Shown: piece after piece, positions 31,905 through 39,647 of the stretch
How the letters are laid out: the number at the start of each line of letters is the position of its first letter
How positions within the stretch are numbered: position 1 is the first letter of the stretch
Source of the DNA: Acidobacteriota bacterium
GTDB taxonomy: Bacteria; Acidobacteriota; UBA6911; RPQK01; CBDAPI01
Direction of reading: 5' to 3'
NCBI GenBank assembly: GCA_965197285.1
Contig: OZ240092.1
Location: 4,869,303-4,933,302, forward strand
DNA length: 64,000 bases
Made by a program: the position numbers and the translations under genes
Notes under the pieces: model-generated
Seen by the model: only the letters and a program-made list of their open reading frames with translations
The model's database searches: none
Told to the model about the DNA's origin: nothing

Positions 31905-32624
31905 ATGAGTGGGCGAGACCGTCGCATCATCCTGGCGCTGGACGTGGAGGCCGGAGAGTTGGCCCTGGAGCTGGCTGCCCGGCTCAAAGACGAAATCGGT
32001 CTGTGTAAAGTGGGCCTGCAGGCCTTTACGGCCGGTGGTCCGGCCCTCGTGCAAGACCTGCGGCGGCTGGGCGTGGAGGTGTTTCTGGACCTCAAGCTTC
32101 ACGATATTCCGAACACCGTGGCAAACGCCGCCGCCCAGGCCGTCCACCTGGGTTGTGCCATGCTGACGCTGCACACAATGGGCGGAGTGCAGATGCTGCG
32201 AGCCGCCCGCCAACAGGTCGACGAGACTGCCCGGAAACTGGGGCGCCGGCCTCCCCGCCTGCTGGGTGTGACGGTCTTGACGAGCATTGACGCCGAACAG
32301 TTGGAGCGGGTCGGAATTCCCGCCCCCCCCCGCCGGCTGGTACGACGCCTGGCCGGAGTGGCGGTGGAGGCCGGGTTGGACGGAGTCGTCTCTTCCCCTC
32401 TTGAATTGGAGCTTCTGAGGGAGGAACCTCTCGACCGGCTGCTCCGAGTCACACCCGGTGTGCGGGCCTCGGGTGCCGAGAAGCACGATCAAAAAAGAAC
32501 GATGACTCCCCGGGAGGCCGTGCAGGCCGGTGCCGACTACCTGGTCATCGGCCGCCCCATCACTCACGACCCAGACCCGCTGCAGGCGGCTCGCCGCATC
32601 AATCGCGAGATTCGATCGTGCTGA
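31905..32624 (+). CDS. pyrF: Orotidine-5'-phosphate decarboxylase
   Basis: IILALD, KVG, FLDLKLHDIPNTV, VTPGVR, DQKR, VIGRPI. Confidence 0.97.
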   Translation: MSGRDRRIILALDVEAGELALELAARLKDEIGLCKVGLQAFTAGGPALVQDLRRLGVEVFLDLKLHDIPNTVANAAAQAVHLGCAMLTLHTMGGVQMLRAARQQVDETARKLGRRPPRLLGVTVLTSIDAEQLERVGIPAPPRRLVRRLAGVAVEAGLDGVVSSPLELELLREEPLDRLLRVTPGVRASGAEKHDQKRTMTPREAVQAGADYLVIGRPITHDPDPLQAARRINREIRSC

Positions 32625-33214
32625 ACTCGGCGCCCAATATGTCAGTCCTGCCCGTGCTAGTGGGGATCCTGCTGCCAGTCCTGCAGCCCGCTCCTGAGCC
32701 CAGGCCAGAGCCCCGGTTGGAAAAGGTCGATCAATCCAGTTGCCACATCTACATCGACTATCGCATCATCTGGACTCTCGAAGTGGCACAGCAGTTCAAC
32801 CAGGCTCCGGTTCCGATCCTCAATATCATCACCTTCGACGCCAAGGAGACACCTCTCAAGCCCGATCAGATTCACCTGTACGATGCCGGGGATCGAACCG
32901 CCGAAGTCAAGAAATTCGCCATTGAGACGGGCTTCGAGCCGTATATCACCAATTATCTGAAGGTCCTGACCTCGTCTTTCATCGGGCTCGATTTGCAGGG
33001 CGATTTCGAGGGCTTTTCAGAGCCCAGTCGCGTAGTCATTGAGCTGGGTGAAACCGAATACCGGCTGCAGGCCGTAGACTGCCTCGATTTCGAGATGCTG
33101 GCGGAGCGGATCAACAAGGTCAACTACGACAGTCCTGATATCAAGGAAGATTTCGACCTGCTGCGCGTCCCCCACGTCGGAACCACCGGCCGCATCAGGA
33201 AGGGACGCCGCTGA
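32618..33214 (+). CDS. Hypothetical secreted protein
   Basis: Hydrophobic leader, Pro-rich linker, typical codon usage, overlaps the pyrF stop. Confidence 0.65.
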   Translation: MLNSAPNMSVLPVLVGILLPVLQPAPEPRPEPRLEKVDQSSCHIYIDYRIIWTLEVAQQFNQAPVPILNIITFDAKETPLKPDQIHLYDAGDRTAEVKKFAIETGFEPYITNYLKVLTSSFIGLDLQGDFEGFSEPSRVVIELGETEYRLQAVDCLDFEMLAERINKVNYDSPDIKEDFDLLRVPHVGTTGRIRKGRR

Positions 33215-33255
33215 GTTTCGGCCCCCGAAGAGTGAGTGGGCCTACTGGAGGTCTT

Positions 33256-33446
33256 TAGGAACTATAAGGGGCCTCAGGGCCGCGACCGCCGGGCTGTGTC
33301 AAGAAAGAGTGGGCAGGGCCCCGGGGCAGCGACCGTTTAAATACCCCCGGGAGTCGCCACGGGGCCCTGCCCACTCTTTCGTCCCGGCCCAGCAACTCGG
33401 GGTCGCGCCCCTAAGGCGCCTCCCGCGTCGCCGCCCCAAGGCGCCT
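33256..33446. repeat. GTGG-type REP/REPIN palindrome serving as the IS110 target
   Basis: Perfect 21-bp IR GAAAGAGTGGGCAGGGCCCCG (33303-33323 / 33360-33380) nested in an outer imperfect IR; tandem AAGGCGCCTCCC(G/A)C units, the second split by the IS110. Confidence 0.75.
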
Positions 33447-33574
33447 TATAGTTACTAACGATCTATTTTCCAACGATGGATTAGAAATAGTAGCGATTTT
33501 CTTTTTTGCTGCTTTTTTCTTTTCTGGGTTGTGGGAAAAAGTTTGCGCCGGGAGCGATCGAGGATTTGATTGCC

Positions 33575-33751
33575 TCTGTGCAGCACGCGCACCGTGGCGT
33601 TACGAATTTAAGGCGCCAGCGTACGAGACGCTTGGTGGGAGACTTTCGAACGCCACGGTGCACAGACAGCAAACGCATACTCTAGATGCTGTCCTTCGAG
33701 GACTCGACTATAAGGGTTGCGCAAGGTCTGGGCAAGCGTGTGCTGCGCAGA
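33575..33751 (+). ncRNA. Predicted IS110 bridge RNA
   Basis: Closing stem CTGTGCAGCACGCGC / GCGTGTGCTGCGCAG and two stem-loops with internal loops whose strands match target (TAAGGCGCC, GTGGGAGAC) and donor (AGATG, ACTATAAG) junction sequences. Confidence 0.8.
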
Positions 33752-33764
33752 AAGGAGTGGCGCA

Positions 33765-34068
33765 ATGTTAGCCACAGAACAGATCGCAGCATGGGTAGGA
33801 TTGGATTGGGCCGAAGATCAACATGAGATCCGACTGCGGGCCGCCGGCAGTCGGGAAGTAGAGAGGTATCAGGTGCGGCAAGACCCGGAAGAGTTGCACG
33901 AATGGGTACGCCAGCTAAGAACCCGTTTTGAGGGTCGTCCTGTGGTGATTGCCCTGGAGCAAAAGCGGGGAGGGTTGATGGCGGCGCTGATGTGCTATGA
34001 CTTTTTGCACCTGTACCCGATCAATCCGAAGACGGTGGCGAGCTATCGAGAGGCATTTTCACCCTCCG
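33765..34068 (+). CDS. IS110 recombinase/transposase, exon 1
   Basis: AAAGGAG RBS; VGLDWA (D1), ALEQ (E2), YPINP...YREAFSPS. Confidence 0.9.
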
Positions 34069-34561
34069 GTGCGCCGGCGCAAACCGGTGAGTAGCAGAGA
34101 GCGAGAGTCTCTCACAGGAAAGGAGTAGCGAACCATGCTGACCCCGAGTCATGCGTGTGTACTCGTAAGAGTGCAGGCGAAGCATTGACAGGGGCACGTG
34201 CGGGCCAGGTATTGAGCCGCGGAAGGAAAATGACTTCGGGGGGCCGACGTAGTCGTAGGATCGGAAGGCAACATGGAACCGTTCGCTAATCGCGAGAACG
34301 ATTCCGCCCCCGCGTGGTCCCGAGACCTTGTGCACGTACGGAAGTTGCTTACACGGGAGCCGGGAGATCCCGCCTCTGACCCCAGGGGGATGGCCCCAAG
34401 GTCCGCGCTGTGAATCCGAAAGGAGCACGACAGCGATGCACGGAGGCGGGAAGTCGGACAGGCTGATAGTAGCTGAGAAGCGCTCGAACAAAGACGGCGG
34501 TGCGCCGCGGTCGGCGGAGAGGGTGGAGCCAAGCGGCCTGGCCAAAGGGAATTCGTCCTAG

Positions 34562-36213
34562 CCCGGATTATGCAAGAACCGTAGTTCGGTGTTGAAAAAC
34601 GACTCGAGAAGTGGCCCAACTCGGAAGCGGGCAGGTGTGACAGGCGGATTTGCGAAGAATATGGGTTGGCGAGGCGTTTGAGTGGTTTGGGGAGTGAATT
34701 TCAGACAGATCTGGGCCTGGATGAGTGTCGGAAGCGGTTTTTCGGGGGAGCTGGGAAAAGCTAACTGGAGTTCAGGCGACTCAAGACGAGGTGGAAGAGG
34801 GGTTGTTCGGGGAAGGCTGAGGAAAGATGGACCCAGATGCGTCGAGTGGTTTGTCGGATCCGGGCCCCAATCTTGAGGACCCGACGACGTAAGGTTTCGA
34901 TTTCGAGCTTGTGCCAGGGGGTTCCGTGAAGATAGTCGCGCAGGCGCACGAACATCTGGTAAGCCAGTGCATGCAGGAGGAGTCGAAACTGATTGGCCAG
35001 GAATCGATGACAGCTGAGTCGGTCCATGCTCAGATGATTCTTGAAGGCCTTGATGAAGTTCTCGGTCTGCCCTCGGTTTGTGTAGTGGTCATAAAGTGAT
35101 TGGGAGCAGAGATCGTCCCGGTTGGCAACTACAAAGCGACGATTGATGCCACGCTGATCGACCTCCACTTTGACAATGACGCGACGGGATCGATCCCAGC
35201 TGTGGGCTCGATAAAGAAACTCGTCAAACTGACGCTGTTTTTCCTCCAGCTCAAGGAACCTCAGCCGAGTCGAATCCAGCAGGGGCTCGACCACTCGCTG
35301 CAGGCGAGGGTTTCGACTTAACCCAATGACATACTGGAGTTTATTCTCTTCACATTCACAGAACTCGTAGAGCCGAGGCGTGGCAAAGCCGCTGTCGGCC
35401 CGAATCTCAATCTCGACATCCGTCCCCACTGCTTGTCGGATGGCCTCCACGACTCGCTTCAGAATGGGCACGATGTGAGAGGCAGCCCCCTTGTTGCCAG
35501 GTCTCAACACGGCACAGACCAGGTCTCCCGTGTCGGCATCGAAGATCAGCAAAGGATGCAGAATGTGGTTTCGGTAATACCCGTGGTAGAAGGAGAACTC
35601 CTGTTGGCCGTGAGTGTGGTCGTCGGTACTGTCCAGATCCAGGATGATCTTGCTGGGACGTCTCTTCTTCAGGGAGCGCACATAACGGCCTGGCAGCCAC
35701 CGGCTCAGACGCATCAGATCCTTCTTGGTGACGGAGTTCTCCAGGCGGGAGAAAGTCGGCTGGGTGGCCAAATCGGGATCGCTCTCTGGCAACTGATCAC
35801 AGACGGTCTTGAGCATCGGATCCGAGCGCAGCGTATCGGCGTCATTACAGTCTTCGTAGCCGGCCACGATCTGCAAGACTCGTTGTCGGATCAACTTCAA
35901 CAGGTCATGACGAACGTAGCGTCGGTCTCGACTTTCCGAAATACACGAACTGAAGCCCTCGCACAATCGATGTTGACGATCCAGCGATCCAAACAACAAC
36001 CATCCTGCGTCGGAAGTGAGGCTCCCCCCATCAAAACGAGCCGTGATGTTTCTGTGGCTATGAAATGGCAGGGTATTCTGGCAGACTGTTTTTGACATTG
36101 CCGTAGCTCCTGTTTAGGGTCATTGTTTTTGTAAACCCTTTTATATCAGAGAGCTACGGCCTTTTTCCTGGGCCCAAATCTCACTCGGATTCAGATCTTT
36201 TGCATAATTCGTC
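34562..36213 (-). mobile_element. IS1380-family element inside the group II intron
   Basis: Ends CCCGGATTATGCAA ... TTGCATAATTCGTC; CTAG duplicated at 34558-34561 and 36214-36217. Confidence 0.88.
34761..36098 (-). CDS. IS1380-family transposase (DDE_Tnp_1_4)
   Basis: FDGGSLTSDAG, AGYEDCND, LDLDST, HGQQE, IRADSGF, RGQTENFIK, FLANQFRL. Confidence 0.95.
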   Translation of the reverse strand: MSKTVCQNTLPFHSHRNITARFDGGSLTSDAGWLLFGSLDRQHRLCEGFSSCISESRDRRYVRHDLLKLIRQRVLQIVAGYEDCNDADTLRSDPMLKTVCDQLPESDPDLATQPTFSRLENSVTKKDLMRLSRWLPGRYVRSLKKRRPSKIILDLDSTDDHTHGQQEFSFYHGYYRNHILHPLLIFDADTGDLVCAVLRPGNKGAASHIVPILKRVVEAIRQAVGTDVEIEIRADSGFATPRLYEFCECEENKLQYVIGLSRNPRLQRVVEPLLDSTRLRFLELEEKQRQFDEFLYRAHSWDRSRRVIVKVEVDQRGINRRFVVANRDDLCSQSLYDHYTNRGQTENFIKAFKNHLSMDRLSCHRFLANQFRLLLHALAYQMFVRLRDYLHGTPWHKLEIETLRRRVLKIGARIRQTTRRIWVHLSSAFPEQPLFHLVLSRLNSS

Positions 36214-36257
36214 CTAGCAAAACAAGTGCCGGACACAGAGCCGGGAGAGGAATCGAT

Positions 36258-37655
36258 ATGGAGGACTCTAAACGGGCACCAAGCGGGAAATCGCGGACAC
36301 AGCCAAGAGACCGCACCTACGTCGAAACCGAGGACTTGCAAAGTGCGCTGGAACGGATACGGCAGGTAGCCTGCCGGGATAAGGAGCTACGGTTCACGTC
36401 GCTCTGGCACCACGTCACTAACATCGATCGACTCCGGCAGGCTTACTTCGGCCTCAAGCGCAATGCCGCACCGGGCGTGGATGGATTGACGTGGCAGCAA
36501 TACGGAGAGAGCCTCGAGGAGAACCTCCAGGATCTATCCGCAAGGCTCAAACGCGGAGCGTACCGAGCCAAGCCGGTTCGGAGGGCCTATATACCGAAGG
36601 CCGATGGGCGGCAGCGTCCGCTCGGAGTGACTGCATTGGAGGATAAGATCGTCCAGCGGTCTACGGTCCAGGTATTGAACGCCATCTACGAAACCGACTT
36701 TCTCGGCTTCTCGTATAGTTTCCGCCCGGGGCGCAGTCCACACCATGCGTTGGACGCGCTCTATGTCGGAATCATGCGCAAGCGAGTGAACTGGGTGCTG
36801 GATGCGGACGTTTGTGGGTTTTTCGATGCCATCGACCACAAATGGCTGTTGAAGTTCATCGAGCACAGAATCGCCGATCCACGTGTTATCCGCCACCTTA
36901 AAAAGTGGCTCAAGGCGGGGATCGTGGAGGATGGGAAGCGAACCGAGATCGAATCCGGTACGCCTCAAGGCGGGAGTGTTTCACCCGTGTTGGCTAATGT
37001 GTACCTTCATTATGTGTTCGATCTATGGGCCGACCAATGGAGACGCAGGCACGCTCGTGGCGATGTAATCATCGTCCGGTTTGCCGACGACTTCACAGTG
37101 GGTTTCGAGTTTCGTGAAGATGCCGAGCGTTTTCTGGCAGACTTGCGGGACCGGTTCCACACGTTTCACCTGGAACTGCACCCCGACAAAACGCGCTTGA
37201 TCGAGTTCGGGCGGTACGCCGCTCGGGATCGCAAGCGCCGTGGAGAAGGGAAGCCCGAGTCTTTCGACTTCCTGGGTTTTACGCACACGTGCGACAGAAC
37301 CCGGAACGGGAGATTCATCGTGCTGCGGCAGACCATGCGGAAGCGCATGCAAGCGAAACTGCGAGAGATCGCTCGCGAGCTTCGGTATCGCCTGCATGAA
37401 CCCGTCCCGGTAGTGGGTCAGTGGTTGCGCAGTGTAGTACAGGGACATTTCCAGTACTATGCCGTACCGCGTAACCATCGCAAGCCGGCCGCTTTCAAGT
37501 ATCAGGTCTATCGACTCTGGCTGCGTGCGCTAAGGCGTCGTAGCCAGCGTCATCGGATCACTGGAGAGCGGATGAACCGCCTAGCGACAAGATGGCTTCC
37601 TGCACTGCGAGTTGTACACCCTTATCCCGAACAGCGACTGCGCGTTATTACCTGA
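36258..37655 (+). CDS. ltrA: Group II intron reverse transcriptase/maturase without endonuclease domain
   Basis: APGVDG, YIPKADGRQRPLG, SYSFRPGRS, GTPQGG..SP.LAN, RFADD, FDFLGF and domain X; ends just before domain V. Confidence 0.95.
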   Translation: MEDSKRAPSGKSRTQPRDRTYVETEDLQSALERIRQVACRDKELRFTSLWHHVTNIDRLRQAYFGLKRNAAPGVDGLTWQQYGESLEENLQDLSARLKRGAYRAKPVRRAYIPKADGRQRPLGVTALEDKIVQRSTVQVLNAIYETDFLGFSYSFRPGRSPHHALDALYVGIMRKRVNWVLDADVCGFFDAIDHKWLLKFIEHRIADPRVIRHLKKWLKAGIVEDGKRTEIESGTPQGGSVSPVLANVYLHYVFDLWADQWRRRHARGDVIIVRFADDFTVGFEFREDAERFLADLRDRFHTFHLELHPDKTRLIEFGRYAARDRKRRGEGKPESFDFLGFTHTCDRTRNGRFIVLRQTMRKRMQAKLREIARELRYRLHEPVPVVGQWLRSVVQGHFQYYAVPRNHRKPAAFKYQVYRLWLRALRRRSQRHRITGERMNRLATRWLPALRVVHPYPEQRLRVIT

Positions 37656-37733
37656 GGTAAGAGCCCAGTGCGGTAGTTCCGCTCGCTGGGATCTGTGCGG
37701 GGGGCGATCCGAAAGGATCGTCCCTACCGCGAC

Positions 37734-38695
37734 GTAAGAAGGATGATCCGGAAGATTCGGACTTGTTGCTGGAGCTGGTGTACAGACACCGGGATCGATT
37801 GCGTTGTTGGAGACCGGAGGCGGCCCAGACCCGGGAGCTGGCGCTGTTGGTGGAGGGGCGACGCCAGTTGGTGGAGAGGCGCAAAGAACTGGTGCAGCAA
37901 CTGCGCGAGGTCTTGAAGAGCTACTATCCGCAGCCTTTGCAGTGGTTTGCAAAGTTGGATGGGCCGCTGGCTCTGGAGTTTTTGAGGCGCTGGCCCACCT
38001 TGGAGCAGGCTCGCAAAGTGCGGATCGATGTACTGGGTCGCTGCATGGCACGACATCGAGTACGCTGTGCCGAGACGAAGCTGCAAACATTGCTCGAGCA
38101 GATCCGTGCCAGTTACCCACTGACCCAGGATGAGGCTCTCATTGGAGCCGGTTCACTGAAACTGGTGGGCCTGGTCGAACAGCTCTCGGTTCTGCTGCCG
38201 ATCATCAAACGCTACGACAACCGCATTGCCACGCTCTTCGCCGAGCATGAAGATGCCGCTCTGTTTGCAAGCTTCAGCGGAGCCGGGCCGGCTCTGGCTC
38301 CTCGCTTGTTGGCGGCCTTCGGGTCGGATCGCAGTCGCTTTGAGGATGCTGAAGAGGTCCAAAAATGGAGCGGCATCGCTCCCGTAACACGAAAGAGCGG
38401 ACGAAGTTCTCAGGTGGTCTGGCGTCGAGGCTGTCCCAAGTTTATTCGCCAAACCTTTCATGAGTTTGCGGCCTGCTCAATTCCGCAATCGTCCTGGGCT
38501 CGTGCTTACTACCTGCAGCAACGTCAGCGCGGTCTCAAACACCACGCTGCCGTTCGATCTTTAGCTTACAAATGGATTCGCATTCTCTTCCGTTGCTGGA
38601 TGGATCGAGTCCACTATGACGAGGAACTCTACTGCCGGAGTCTCCAGAGGAGCAACTCTCCTCTTGTGGCTCTGATGCAACCGGCTTGTGGATAA
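37734..38695 (+). CDS. IS110 recombinase/transposase, exon 2
   Basis: (G)KKDDPEDSDLL (D3/D4), LKSYYP, GAGPALAPRL, SGIAPVTRKSG, AVRSLAYKWIRI; spliced ORF is 1266 nt = 421 aa. Confidence 0.9.
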
Positions 38696-38774
38696 GCTTC
38701 AAAAAAAGGGAGACAATTCTCTTGACTTATGAGCTCAGATGTCTCCCACATTCGGACCCCTGATTCCGGGATGG

Positions 38775-39647
38775 CTAGACGGCCCGCGGGACGAATACCT
38801 CTACCGAACGTCTGGCGACGCTGAAGTCCATGGGCAGAGTTCCGATGATCTCCCCGTCCATCTGCACCGGTATCGAGTCTTTGCCTCTCACGCTGATGTG
38901 CCTGGCCTTGACGTAGTGGACGTCGGGCAGTTTTACATGGCCCCCGGTGAGGACCCGCAGCAGATAGGTGACATAGCGCTTGCGATCGCGGGAGGTGAAA
39001 AGGCAGATGTCCAGACAGTCCTCGGTGACGTCGGCGTCCGGCGCCAGCTGGAGATGTCCTCCGTAAAGGCGGCTGTTGCTGATCACGGCGAAAGTGGCCT
39101 CCGCGGAGCGCCCGTCCAGGTAGATCTCGAATGGTTCCAGGGGAAGGTGTCGGTACGCTCGCAAGCCCGCCAGCCAGTACGAACCGACCCCGAAACGGCG
39201 CTTCAGTGCGGAAGAGGTCTGATCGATGACTTGGCTGTCCAATCCCACCCCGGCCATCAGATGGAAGTAATTGGGCCCGCTCTTGCCCAGGCGGATGCGG
39301 GTCCGGGTGCCCTCTTTCAAAAGGCGCAGCGCCCGGGTGGGGTCTCTGGGGATCGACAGTTCCCGGGCCAGCACATTCGCGGTTCCGGCCGGAAGAACGG
39401 CCACGGGGAGTTGAAGATCCAGTGCAGGTTCCAGCACCTGGTGGATGGTCCCGTCTCCCCCGTACGCAATGATCAGGTCATGGTCGTGCAGATCCTCGCT
39501 GCGAAGGGCTCCCGATGCCGGACTGGAACGGACGGCAGTGACCTCCAGCCCCATGGCATGGATTGCTTCGATCAGCTTTTGCCTTCTCCTTGGCGAGAGG
39601 GTGATTCGACCGGCGTTGGGATTGTAATAAAAGAGTGCACGTTTCAT
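38775..39647 (-). CDS. Diacylglycerol/lipid kinase family protein
   Basis: YNPNAG, GGDGTIHQV, PAGTANVLA, AGVGLD, QMDGE. Confidence 0.92.
   Translation of the reverse strand: MKRALFYYNPNAGRITLSPRRRQKLIEAIHAMGLEVTAVRSSPASGALRSEDLHDHDLIIAYGGDGTIHQVLEPALDLQLPVAVLPAGTANVLARELSIPRDPTRALRLLKEGTRTRIRLGKSGPNYFHLMAGVGLDSQVIDQTSSALKRRFGVGSYWLAGLRAYRHLPLEPFEIYLDGRSAEATFAVISNSRLYGGHLQLAPDADVTEDCLDICLFTSRDRKRYVTYLLRVLTGGHVKLPDVHYVKARHISVRGKDSIPVQMDGEIIGTLPMDFSVARRSVEVFVPRAV

What the first reader, a model, noticed from the sequence alone, without database searches (positions are those of the whole stretch)
33445..38744. IS110 with a directly decodable bridge RNA that programs insertion into a REP
Seen: the empty target reconstructs as AAGGCGC-CT-CCCAC and the circle junction as CAGATGT-CT-TATAGT, which also creates TTGACT-17-TATAGT firing into the non-coding left end. 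In 33575-33751, loop 1 contains TAAGGCGCC (33609-33617, left target) and GTGGGAG-AC (33635-33643, complement of CT-CCCAC plus 2 nt matching the post-recombination flank). Loop 2 contains AGATG (33684-33688, left donor, only a partial match) and ACTATAAG-G (33707-33715, complement of CT-TATAGT). Known: this is the bridge-RNA logic of IS621, including handshake guides. Inference: a divergent 421-aa ortholog with its own specificity and a closed multi-stem RNA fold, and so a candidate programmable recombinase.
Basis: partly seen in the sequence, partly recalled or inferred. Interest (0 to 1): 0.85.

Follow-up and report, generated by a model that had tools for sequence, protein, structure and literature searches.

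The report
IS110 transposon with readable bridge RNA
This is a genuine RNA-guided IS110-family insertion sequence whose left end encodes a two-loop bridge RNA that spells out both its repeat-sequence target and its own ends, but it is one more member of a kind described in 2024, and this copy is broken by a nested intron and another transposon.

Summary
Window 33447-38744 is an IS110-group element flanked by a CT core on each side. Its 421-aa DEDD/Tnp recombinase gene is split by a group II intron (34069-37733), which itself carries an IS1380-family element (34564-36208). The genome holds 20 copies of the left-end RNA. Eight copies are clean 1634-1636-bp elements encoding the uninterrupted protein. 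All 20 complete left junctions read ...AGGCGC-CT|TATAGT (one has AGGCAC), and all 21 right junctions read CAGATGT-CT|CCCAC, CCCGC or, once, CCTAC. The left end (33582-33759) folds into two internal-loop modules closed by an outer helix. 34 of 42 base pairs show compensatory changes across 66 distinct homologous sequences. In 19-20 orthologous elements with different targets, the loop-1 guides change with the flanks: cognate median 12 of 13 matches, non-cognate mostly 5-7. Two elements with a changed donor end have a matching change in loop 2. A -35 box sits 17-18 nt from the right end in 19 of 19 orthologues, so a promoter forms at the circle junction. This is the published IS621 logic, and NCBIfam already names the protein "IS110 family RNA-guided transposase". 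Verdict: correct reading, new member of a known kind, modest interest. Activity and programmability are untested.

The parts
33427..33446 (+). Left half of the target: REP-like unit GTCGCCGCCCCAAGGCGC plus core CT (left target AAGGCGC 33438-33444; core 33445-33446)
   Evidence: The same 20 nt, with few variants, lie upstream of 20 of 20 complete left ends in the genome. CGCC-CCAA-GGCG can form a small hairpin (read from the sequence).
33447..33764 (+). Non-coding left end (318 nt), beginning with right donor TATAGT, which is also the -10 hexamer of the junction promoter
   Evidence: The 5' 129 nt fold into a long hairpin, z -2.6.
33582..33759 (+). Bridge RNA: outer helix (33586-33590 with 33736-33740), target-binding module, donor-binding module
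   Evidence: Covariance model R1 hit at 153.5 bits. MFE -92.3 kcal/mol, z -6.2. 24 of 42 pairs compensatory in 18 sequences. 34 of 42 in 66 distinct sequences, 94.5% of cells paired against 28-42% when the partner is slid.
33610..33617 (+). Left target guide AAGGCGCC (same sense as left target + first core base, so it pairs with the bottom strand)
   Evidence: The homologous position matches the own left flank in orthologues.
33635..33643 (+). Right target guide GUGGGAG (pairs with top-strand CT-CCCAC) plus handshake AC (complementary to donor positions 6-7, GT)
   Evidence: The 5 non-core positions match the own right flank 5 of 5 in 15 of 20 orthologues. Handshake definition.
33680..33690 (+). 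Left donor guide CUCUAGAUGCU (donor CTCAGATGTCT: AGAUG contiguous, CUC across a 1-nt bulge)
   Evidence: 16 of 19 orthologues have 8-10 contiguous matches here. L106 and L113 change both the donor (ACC) and the guide (ACC).
33707..33716 (+). Right donor guide ACUAUAAG (pairs with CT-TATAGT) plus handshake GG (the first G pairs with target position 7, C)
33765..34068 (+). Recombinase exon 1 (residues 1-101 plus the first base of G102), DEDD RuvC-like domain
   Evidence: PF01548. Contiguous with exon 2 in intact copies.
34069..37733 (+). Group II intron (5' GUGCG, 3' AC) with RT/maturase ORF 36258-37655
   Evidence: Rfam RF02005 at 174.3 bits, 34104-34328. RVT_1. TIGR04416 at 344.7 bits. Exact boundaries come from intron-free copies.
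34564..36208 (-). IS1380-family element nested in the intron (transposase 34761-36098, minus strand), 9-10-bp duplication (T)TCGTCCTAG
   Evidence: PF13701 at 476.8 bits. NF033539 at 372.2 bits. Absent from this position in the other intron copies.
37734..38695 (+). Recombinase exon 2 (rest of G102 to residue 421, then stop): end of the DEDD domain, a longer middle region and the Tnp domain with the catalytic-Ser motif KSG
   Evidence: PF01548 and PF02371. S323 and G324 are invariant and align to the ESG of IS621.
38696..38744 (+). Right end (49 nt): -35 box TTGACT 38722-38727, left donor CAGATGT 38736-38742, core CT 38743-38744
   Evidence: TTGAC at 17 nt (16 elements) or 18 nt (3 elements) from the end in 19 of 19 orthologues.
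38745..38749 (+). Right target CCCAC
   Evidence: Right flanks of 21 copies: 14 CCCAC, 6 CCCGC, 1 CCTAC.

Best explanation
The element is an IS110-group, RNA-guided insertion sequence, 1634 bp when intact.

Proposed mechanism, inferred from the IS621 papers and not tested here:
- Excision gives a circle in which the right end is joined to the left end through one CT core.
- The junction places a -35 box (TTGACT) 17 nt upstream of the left terminus TATAGT. This promoter transcribes the left end and then the recombinase gene.
- The left-end transcript folds into a bridge RNA with two internal-loop modules.
[quoted passage not shown] - Loop 2 carries CUC(U)AGAUG and ACUAUAAG, which read the element's own joined ends in the same way.
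- Two bases after each 3' guide can pair with the partner DNA after strand exchange (handshake).
- The 421-aa DEDD/Ser recombinase then exchanges strands at the CT core. The element is inserted into a REP-like unit GTCGCCGCCCCAAGGCGC-CT-CCCAC.

Shown here: the boundaries, target consensus, RNA fold, guide/flank covariation and conserved junction promoter.

The window copy is non-autonomous unless its intron, which carries a 1.6-kb IS1380-family insertion, still splices. Its RNA gene and both ends are intact, so it could supply bridge RNA and be moved in trans by the eight intact copies.
For: Protein:
- PF01548 + PF02371.
- NF033542 'IS110 family RNA-guided transposase', 154.3 bits against a cut-off of 140.
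- D14, E65, D106, D109 and S323 are invariant in 37 homologues.
- A profile of the family hits IS621 and ISCro4 transposases in the PDB at E 9e-12 and 9e-11.

Copies in the own genome:
- 24 matches to the left 622 nt.
- 19 paired copies, 8 of them clean at 1634-1636 bp.
- 20 hits of the RNA model.
- 20 of 20 complete left junctions and 21 of 21 right junctions share the ends and the target.
- The intact copy translates to 421 aa with the predicted junction ...SPSGKKDDPED....

RNA:
- z -6.2.
- 24 of 42 pairs compensatory in 18 orthologues.
- In 66 distinct sequences, 94.5% of cells are paired, 34 of 42 pairs have changes on both sides, 0 of 500 shuffles reach this, and slid controls give 28-42%.
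- The model finds the RNA directly upstream of the gene in 65 of 72 sources, 18 of which built it.

Guides:
- In 20 orthologous elements, cognate scores average 6.8 of 8 (left; 19 elements scored) and 4.6 of 5 (right).
- 349 non-cognate pairings average 4.7 and 1.7.
- The 19 cognate totals have a median of 12 of 13, while 277 of 349 non-cognate totals are 7 or less.
- Donor covariation: L106 and L113 have donor CAGACCT with guide CUCAGACC.

Other:
- Junction promoter: TTGAC 17-18 nt from the end in 19 of 19.
- The strand rules and handshake positions agree with passages of PMC11208160 and PMC11208158.
Against: - No expression or activity data. RNA-library contigs covered only parts of the recombinase ORF at depth 2-5, and no circle junction was seen.
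- The loop-2 left guide is imperfect in this family: 5 contiguous bases plus a bulge.
- All 10 copies of subfamily B carry a left guide ...GGCCCC that mismatches their own flank ...GGCGCC (one has GGCACC) at target position 6.
- 4 of 9 subfamily-B copies have a C:A mismatch in the right guide.
- 22 near-cognate sites GAGGCCCCTCCCAC remain empty.
- The guide-subfamily/flank association inside the genome is weak (9/1 against 4/5, Fisher p 0.057), and the copies are mosaics.
- phmmer with the single protein finds nothing in the PDB, so transfer of mechanistic detail from IS621 is by family-level homology only.
- No Rfam family matched the RNA.
Confidence: 0.9

Rival explanations
1. The left end is only a structured 5' leader or attenuator of the transposase mRNA. 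Target choice would be made by the protein recognising the REP hairpin. The loop matches would exist because a REP fragment and the element's own ends were copied into the leader.
For: The target lies in a hairpin-forming repeat, and 20 nt of upstream flank are conserved, more than the guide covers. The 3' strand of the outer helix lies next to the Shine-Dalgarno sequence. A preprint reports a target stem-loop as an extra specificity determinant for ISPpu10 (abstract read).
Against: Guides change with targets in orthologues whose targets are unrelated, for example CTCTGCCAC/AATGTAG, TCGTGCCC/GCGAAAG and GCCAACCC/AGCCCAG. They sit at fixed positions flanked by invariant ACGAAU and UUUCGAG. A captured fragment would not track both strands in the split 5'/3' pattern.
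Confidence: 0.04
2. The family in this genome is an extinct fossil. The copies are relics and the RNA/target match is historical, with no current mobility.
For: 11 of 19 paired copies are interrupted by introns or other IS. Subfamily-B guides mismatch their own sites. Many near-cognate sites are unoccupied. No circle junction appears in contigs of four public runs.
Against: Eight clean copies carry an open 421-aa frame. Three of them are identical over all 1634 nt, and subfamily A differs at only a few sites. Only 1 exact AAGGCGCCTCCCAC site is left empty, which suggests near-saturation. Contigs cannot show rare circles.
Confidence: 0.1

Closest known systems
IS621 of Escherichia coli (bridge recombinase; PMC11208160, PMC11208158)
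   Same: - DEDD + Tnp(Ser) recombinase.
- CT core, and a 7-2-5 layout of target and donor.
- RNA encoded in the long left end, with two internal loops.
- 5' guides read the bottom strand and 3' guides read the top strand.
- Two-base handshake after each 3' guide.
- Promoter rebuilt across the RE-LE junction.
- Natural target in a REP.
   Different: - The protein is 421 aa against about 326 aa, with roughly 95 extra residues between the two domains (profile alignment).
- It is not detectable by single-sequence phmmer.
- Both modules are closed by an extra covarying 5-bp outer helix.
- The 5' guides usually stop after the first core base: the next RNA base matches the core T in only 2 of 20 orthologues, L067 and L089.
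- The left donor guide has a bulge in this family.
- Different target and donor sequences.
ISCro4 / IS622 (PDB 9t56; preprint 10.1101/2025.05.14.653916, search listing only)
   Same: Same family. The profile hit is E 9e-11, over the Tnp domain.
   Different: Same differences as for IS621. No activity data exist for the present element.
ISPpu9 / ISPpu10 of Pseudomonas putida (PMC12288879, search listing; 10.64898/2026.03.19.712850, abstract)
   Same: IS110 members with many copies inserted in one repeated extragenic palindromic unit. The target carries a GC-rich 5' extension that can form a stem-loop, as here (CGCC-CCAA-GGCG, or GGCC-CTGA-GGCC in the variant unit).
   Different: Different host phylum: the closest relatives of this element are in Acidobacteriota MAGs. 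Whether the target hairpin matters here is untested.
IS1111 group / seekRNA elements
   Same: Same recombinase family and the same RNA-guided logic.
   Different: Those encode the RNA in the right end and have long subterminal inverted repeats. Here the RNA is in the left end and the right end is only 49 nt.

Membership tests
IS110 family, IS110 group (bridge recombinase systems) | N-terminal DEDD RuvC-like domain | tested here: met
   PF01548 on both exon products. D14, E65, D106 and D109 are invariant in 37 homologues.
IS110 family, IS110 group (bridge recombinase systems) | C-terminal Tnp domain with catalytic serine | tested here: met
   PF02371 at 51.5 bits. The invariant S323-G324 aligns with the ESG of IS621. 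That this is the catalytic S241 is my reading of the alignment offset.
IS110 family, IS110 group (bridge recombinase systems) | Curated family model reaches its cut-off | tested here: met
   NF033542 'IS110 family RNA-guided transposase', 154.3 bits against a cut-off of 140.
IS110 family, IS110 group (bridge recombinase systems) | Site-specific insertion at a core dinucleotide, with no terminal inverted repeats and no duplication beyond the core | tested here: met
   CT at both junctions. 20 of 20 left flanks and 21 of 21 right flanks are conserved. One exact empty site exists elsewhere in the genome.
IS110 family, IS110 group (bridge recombinase systems) | Long non-coding left end, short right end | tested here: met
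   318 nt against 49 nt.
IS110 family, IS110 group (bridge recombinase systems) | Left-end RNA with two internal-loop modules, with a conserved structure | tested here: met
   No Rfam family matches it, so homology to the IS621 RNA itself was not tested.
IS110 family, IS110 group (bridge recombinase systems) | Loop 1 guides complementary to the target and covarying with it | tested here: met
   8 + 7 nt in the window. Cognate against non-cognate scores in 20 orthologues.
IS110 family, IS110 group (bridge recombinase systems) | Loop 2 guides complementary to the donor (the joined ends) | tested here: met
   The right donor guide matches 8 of 8. The left donor guide has 5 contiguous bases plus 3 across a bulge in this family, and 8-10 contiguous in 16 of 19 orthologues. 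L106 and L113 show a covarying change.
IS110 family, IS110 group (bridge recombinase systems) | Handshake bases pair with the non-cognate DNA at positions 6-7 | tested here: inconclusive
   Loop 1: AC against donor GT, 2 of 2. Loop 2: GG against target GC, 1 of 2 (rule). Nine of 20 orthologues have AG, not AC, after the right target guide.
IS110 family, IS110 group (bridge recombinase systems) | Promoter formed across the circle junction | tested here: inconclusive
   TTGACT-17 nt-TATAGT by position. TTGAC is conserved at 17-18 nt in 19 of 19 orthologues. Transcription was not shown.
IS110 family, IS110 group (bridge recombinase systems) | RNA-dependent, reprogrammable recombination | not testable with these tools
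   Needs a biochemical or plasmid assay.
REP (repetitive extragenic palindromic) target | Short unit that is repeated many times, extragenic and able to form a hairpin | tested here: met
   55 copies of the left-half pattern and 33 unoccupied full target-like sites. The window site lies between the 32618-33214 ORF (no Pfam family), which follows the OMP decarboxylase gene, and the convergent YegS/DAG-kinase-like gene. An inverted pair of units at 33292-33389 gives spurious microRNA model hits. The hairpin is read from the sequence.
Bacterial group II intron | Ribozyme domains, RT/maturase ORF, GUGYG...AY ends, and precise absence from the uninterrupted allele | tested here: met
   RF02005 at E 1e-51. 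TIGR04416 above its cut-off. GUGCG at 34069 and AC at 37732-37733. Intron-free copies are contiguous across the site. No separate domain V/VI model hit was reported.

The most novel reading that the evidence does not exclude
This clade, found mainly in Acidobacteriota, may be a distinct architectural variant of the bridge system.
- The recombinase is about 95 residues longer between the RuvC-like and Tnp domains.
- The two RNA modules are tied together by a covarying outer helix whose 3' strand abuts the ribosome-binding site. RNA folding and recombinase translation could therefore be coupled.
- The 5' guides read only the first core base.
- Position 6 of the left target is naturally tolerant: subfamily B sits at mismatched sites.

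If so, it would be an orthogonal programmable recombinase with different rules from IS621/IS622. Separately, a group II intron homes to one site in the recombinase gene (6 of 19 copies). It could ride on an RNA-guided transposon that is still moved in trans.
Probability: 0.15. Interest if true: 0.5.

Novelty: new member of a known kind. Interest (0 to 1): 0.3.

Why it matters
It is a clean natural example in which one genome fixes the ends, the target and the guide code of a bridge-RNA element. It has about 20 copies, 8 of them intact. Some 20 orthologues with different targets confirm the code by covariation. That makes it a reasonable extra candidate for the toolbox of programmable recombinases, and a source of rules for a clade far from IS621. 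It does not open a new question: the mechanism, REP targeting and the wide spread of bridge RNAs in IS110 elements are already in print. The three-level nesting (IS110 > group II intron > IS1380-family element) is a tidy illustration of mobile elements parasitising each other.

Tried and rejected
- Rfam scan of 32500-39500 at E<=1. It gave only the group II intron and weak microRNA-model hits on the REP palindrome at 33292-33389, which I take as spurious. No bridge-RNA family matched.
- phmmer of the protein against the PDB found nothing. Only the family profile reached IS621 and ISCro4.
- Promoter/terminator scan of 33300-33900. No terminator was found in the T-rich tract of the left end. The one promoter-like site is on the minus strand and I did not pursue it.
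- Public runs. Contigs of two RNA libraries cover only parts of the recombinase ORF at depth 2-5, which shows neither transcription nor the small RNA. No RE-LE joint and no empty-site joint were reported in the two RNA and two DNA runs. Contigs cannot show rare circles, so this says nothing either way.
- Apparent inversion of the ends in loci L026, L033 and L037. This was an orientation artefact, because loci from the genome search keep the contig strand.
- Guide subfamily against right-flank variant within the genome: 9/1 against 4/5, p 0.057. This is suggestive only, and it is weakened by mosaic copies.
- Did intron-bearing IS110 copies spread as one lineage? The SNP table and tree show them on different, mosaic backgrounds, and each has a different secondary insertion. 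There is no support for transposition of the composite as a unit.
- Rows dropped. L025 and L090 had no loop-1 motif by my regular expression, and L064 has a doubtful boundary (score 7 of 13, kept in the counts). L061 has too little left flank for the left score. In one search, 36 of 99 loci had no recognisable pair of ends and were not used. The set was chosen from those with ends, one or a few per genome.
- Supplementary files of the papers are closed. The lists of orthologues in the supplements of PMC11208160 and of the IS622 preprint may already contain this element or its clade, and I could not check.

Full report
**What is in the sequence**

The element runs from 33447 to 38744, with a CT core on each side (33445-33446 and 38743-38744).

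The recombinase gene starts at 33765 and is cut after 34068 by a group II intron (34069-37733).
- Rfam RF02005 hits 34104-34328 at 174.3 bits, E 1e-51.
- The intron ORF at 36258-37655 matches RVT_1 and TIGR04416.
- The intron itself holds a 1645-bp IS1380-family element at 34564-36208, on the minus strand. It matches PF13701 at 476.8 bits and NF033539, and has a 9-10-bp duplication.

Exon 2 (37734-38695) continues the frame. The two exon products carry PF01548 and PF02371.

**Copies in the same genome**

The window lies in a single 5.75-Mb contig.
- The left 622 nt match 24 places.
- I paired 19 copies. Eight of them are clean elements of 1634-1636 bp.
- An intact copy translates to one 421-aa frame that reads ...FSPSGKKDDPEDSD... 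across the intron site.
- All 20 complete left junctions read ...GTCGCCGCCCCAAGGCGC-CT|TATAGTTACTAACG, with a few single-base variants in the flank.
- All 21 right junctions read GAGCTCAGATGT-CT| followed by CCCAC (14), CCCGC (6) or CCTAC (1).
- A twenty-first left end is truncated by an IS1380-family insertion.

It fails to refute.

**The target is a REP-like unit**

- The left-half pattern occurs 55 times in the genome. 33 full, unoccupied target-like sites remain.
- Only one of these is the exact AAGGCGCCTCCCAC. 22 are the variant GAGGCCCCTCCCAC.
- The units carry a small hairpin: CGCC-CCAA-GGCG, or GGCC-CTGA-GGCC in the variant (read from the sequence).
- They occur in tandem and inverted pairs, for example 33292-33389.
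- In the window they sit between convergent genes.

**The RNA**

- Region 33570-33760 folds at -92.3 kcal/mol, z -6.2.
- I collected relatives of the protein. 7484 proteins passed E 0.001 among 8000 scored candidates, with the closest outside the genome at 82-89% identity and then a large group at 52-57%.
- I fetched 79 loci from genome contigs, mostly Acidobacteriota MAGs, and 20 from the phylum sample.
- An alignment of 18 left ends gives a consensus with 42 pairs, 24 of them with compensatory changes.
- The consensus has a 5-bp outer helix, a long stem leading to loop 1 with a small inner hairpin, and two stems leading to loop 2 with its inner hairpin.
- A covariance model built from this alignment finds a full-length match directly upstream of the gene in 65 of 72 sources. 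18 of those built the model. The 7 misses are partial or 30%-identity loci. It also finds 20 copies in the own genome.
- On the 66 distinct matched sequences, 94.5% of cells form pairs, against 28-42% when partners are slid by 1-3 columns. 34 of 42 pairs change on both sides, and 0 of 500 shuffles reach the observed values.
- That alignment was fitted to the model, which favours the structure. The two short 'helices' inside loop 2 never covary, and I do not count them.

**The guide code**

The invariant motifs ACGAAU and UUUCGAG bracket loop 1 in all orthologues. The bases between them and the inner hairpin differ from element to element and match that element's own flanks.

| Locus | Left flank | Left guide | Right flank (after CT) | Right guide |
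|---|---|---|---|---|
| L040 | CTCTGCCAC | CUCUGCCAC | ACATT | AAUGUAG |
| L049 | TCGTGCCC | UCGUGCCC | TTCGC | GCGAAAG |
| L067 | GCCAACCC | GCCAACCC | GGGCT | AGCCCAG |
| L080 | GTGTCGCC | GUGUCGCC | TCGAC | GUCGAAG |

- Scored at the homologous positions, 20 elements give cognate means of 6.8 of 8 (19 scored) and 4.6 of 5. The 349 non-cognate pairings give 4.7 and 1.7.
- The 19 cognate totals are 7-13, with a median of 12. 277 of the 349 non-cognate totals are 7 or less, and none exceeds 11.
- Boundaries for this test were set by the conserved donor ends and, where several copies existed, by where the copies stop being alike. They were not set by the guides.
- The donor ends are nearly constant (CAGATGT-CT-TATAGK), as is loop 2. 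The two elements with donor CAGACCT have guide CUCAGACC.
- In the window family the left donor guide has one extra U (CUC-U-AGAUG) and lacks the U before CU. L079 has an extra C at the same place. The other 16 of 19 have 8-10 contiguous matches.

**Agreement with the published rules**

PMC11208160 (passages) states three things.
- A promoter is rebuilt across the RE-LE junction.
- Bridge RNAs were predicted in 85.7% of catalogued IS110 elements.

PMC11208158 (passages) defines the handshake guides. They are the two bases after each 3' guide, and they pair with positions 6-7 of the other DNA after strand exchange.

In this element:
- AC after GUGGGAG is complementary to the donor's GT (2 of 2).
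- GG after ACUAUAAG pairs with target position 7 only (1 of 2).
- The -35 box TTGACT lies 17 nt from the end, so TATAGT becomes the -10.
- TTGAC is present at 17 nt in 16 orthologues and at 18 nt in 3, out of 19.

**Points against, or unexplained**

- There is no evidence of expression or of circles.
- The genome has two guide subfamilies. Subfamily A has UAAGGCGCC and GUGGGAG. Subfamily B has CAAGGCCCC and GCGGGAG.
- All 10 B copies sit at ...GGCGCC (one at GGCACC) left flanks, a mismatch at target position 6.
- 4 of 9 B copies sit at CCCAC, a C:A mismatch.
- The association of the right guide with the right flank is weak (p 0.057), and the copies are mosaics.
- The 88%-identical relative has the B-type left guide, and two of its four flanks match it. 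Position 6 therefore seems tolerant, or guides are exchanged between copies after insertion.
- 22 GAGGCCCCTCCCAC sites are empty although each guide set is only two mismatches away.

**State of the window copy**

The RNA gene and both ends are intact. The left 300 nt differ from most subfamily-A copies at one base upstream of the RNA. The protein can be made only if the 3.7-kb intron still splices. That intron has an IS inserted about 50 nt before the RT ORF. I rate the copy as non-autonomous but mobilisable in trans.

The same intron sits at the same site in 6 of 19 copies. Each carries a different secondary insertion.

**Comparison and verdict**

The element works like IS621 and passes the family tests that could be run here. 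NCBI's curated model would already name the protein 'IS110 family RNA-guided transposase'.

It differs from IS621 in four ways.
- Protein length: a roughly 95-residue longer middle region.
- An outer closing helix in the RNA.
- 5' guides that usually stop at the first core base.
- A bulged left donor guide.

These are variations within a family for which diverse RNA structures are already reported. The novelty is that of a new, well-documented member, and the interest is modest.

Noticed in passing
window 34069-37733, and five other IS110 copies in G000 (left ends at 1941569, 2059608, 2678095, 4133644, 4837308): The same group II intron (about 2.0 kb without insertions) sits at the identical site in the recombinase gene in 6 of 19 IS110 copies. 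Each intron copy has a different secondary insertion. This fits homing into IS copies followed by independent hits.
   Followed up: partly
window 34564-36208; also inside other IS110 copies (e.g. G000 921016-924304, 4837308-4845870) and at 3516094: A 1645-bp IS1380-family element with ends CCCGGATTATGCAA.../...TTGCATAAT and a 9-10-bp duplication. It has inserted repeatedly into IS110 copies and into the introns inside them.
   Followed up: partly
window 33250-33290, minus strand: A variant REP left half (GTCGCGGCCCTGAGGCCC) plus CT is followed by 12 of 14 bases of the IS left terminus and then by unrelated DNA. This is a solo terminus remnant about 180 nt from the full copy, in the opposite orientation, and unique in the genome.
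   Followed up: partly
window 33292-33389: An inverted pair of REP units forms a long palindrome. It draws sub-threshold hits of three microRNA models in Rfam. I take these to be chance matches to a hairpin.
   Followed up: no
G000, 20 left ends: There are two guide subfamilies, A (UAAGGCGCC/GUGGGAG) and B (CAAGGCCCC/GCGGGAG). The copies are mosaics of A and B segments, which suggests gene conversion between copies.
   Followed up: partly
G000 genome-wide: 22 unoccupied GAGGCCCCTCCCAC sites against a single unoccupied AAGGCGCCTCCCAC. The exact site type appears nearly saturated, while a two-mismatch variant is untouched.
   Followed up: no
window 33447-33575: The first 129 nt of the left end fold into a long hairpin around a T-rich tract (z -2.6). 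A similar T-rich tract is seen in one orthologue group (CBDCUP). [quoted passage not shown]
   Followed up: no
L007:1768-3139 (an intact copy) in coded runs X11 and X12: Contigs from sponge metatranscriptome libraries cover parts of the recombinase ORF. One runs from the right end into the flank of another copy. Depth is 2-5, and DNA carry-over is not excluded.
   Followed up: no
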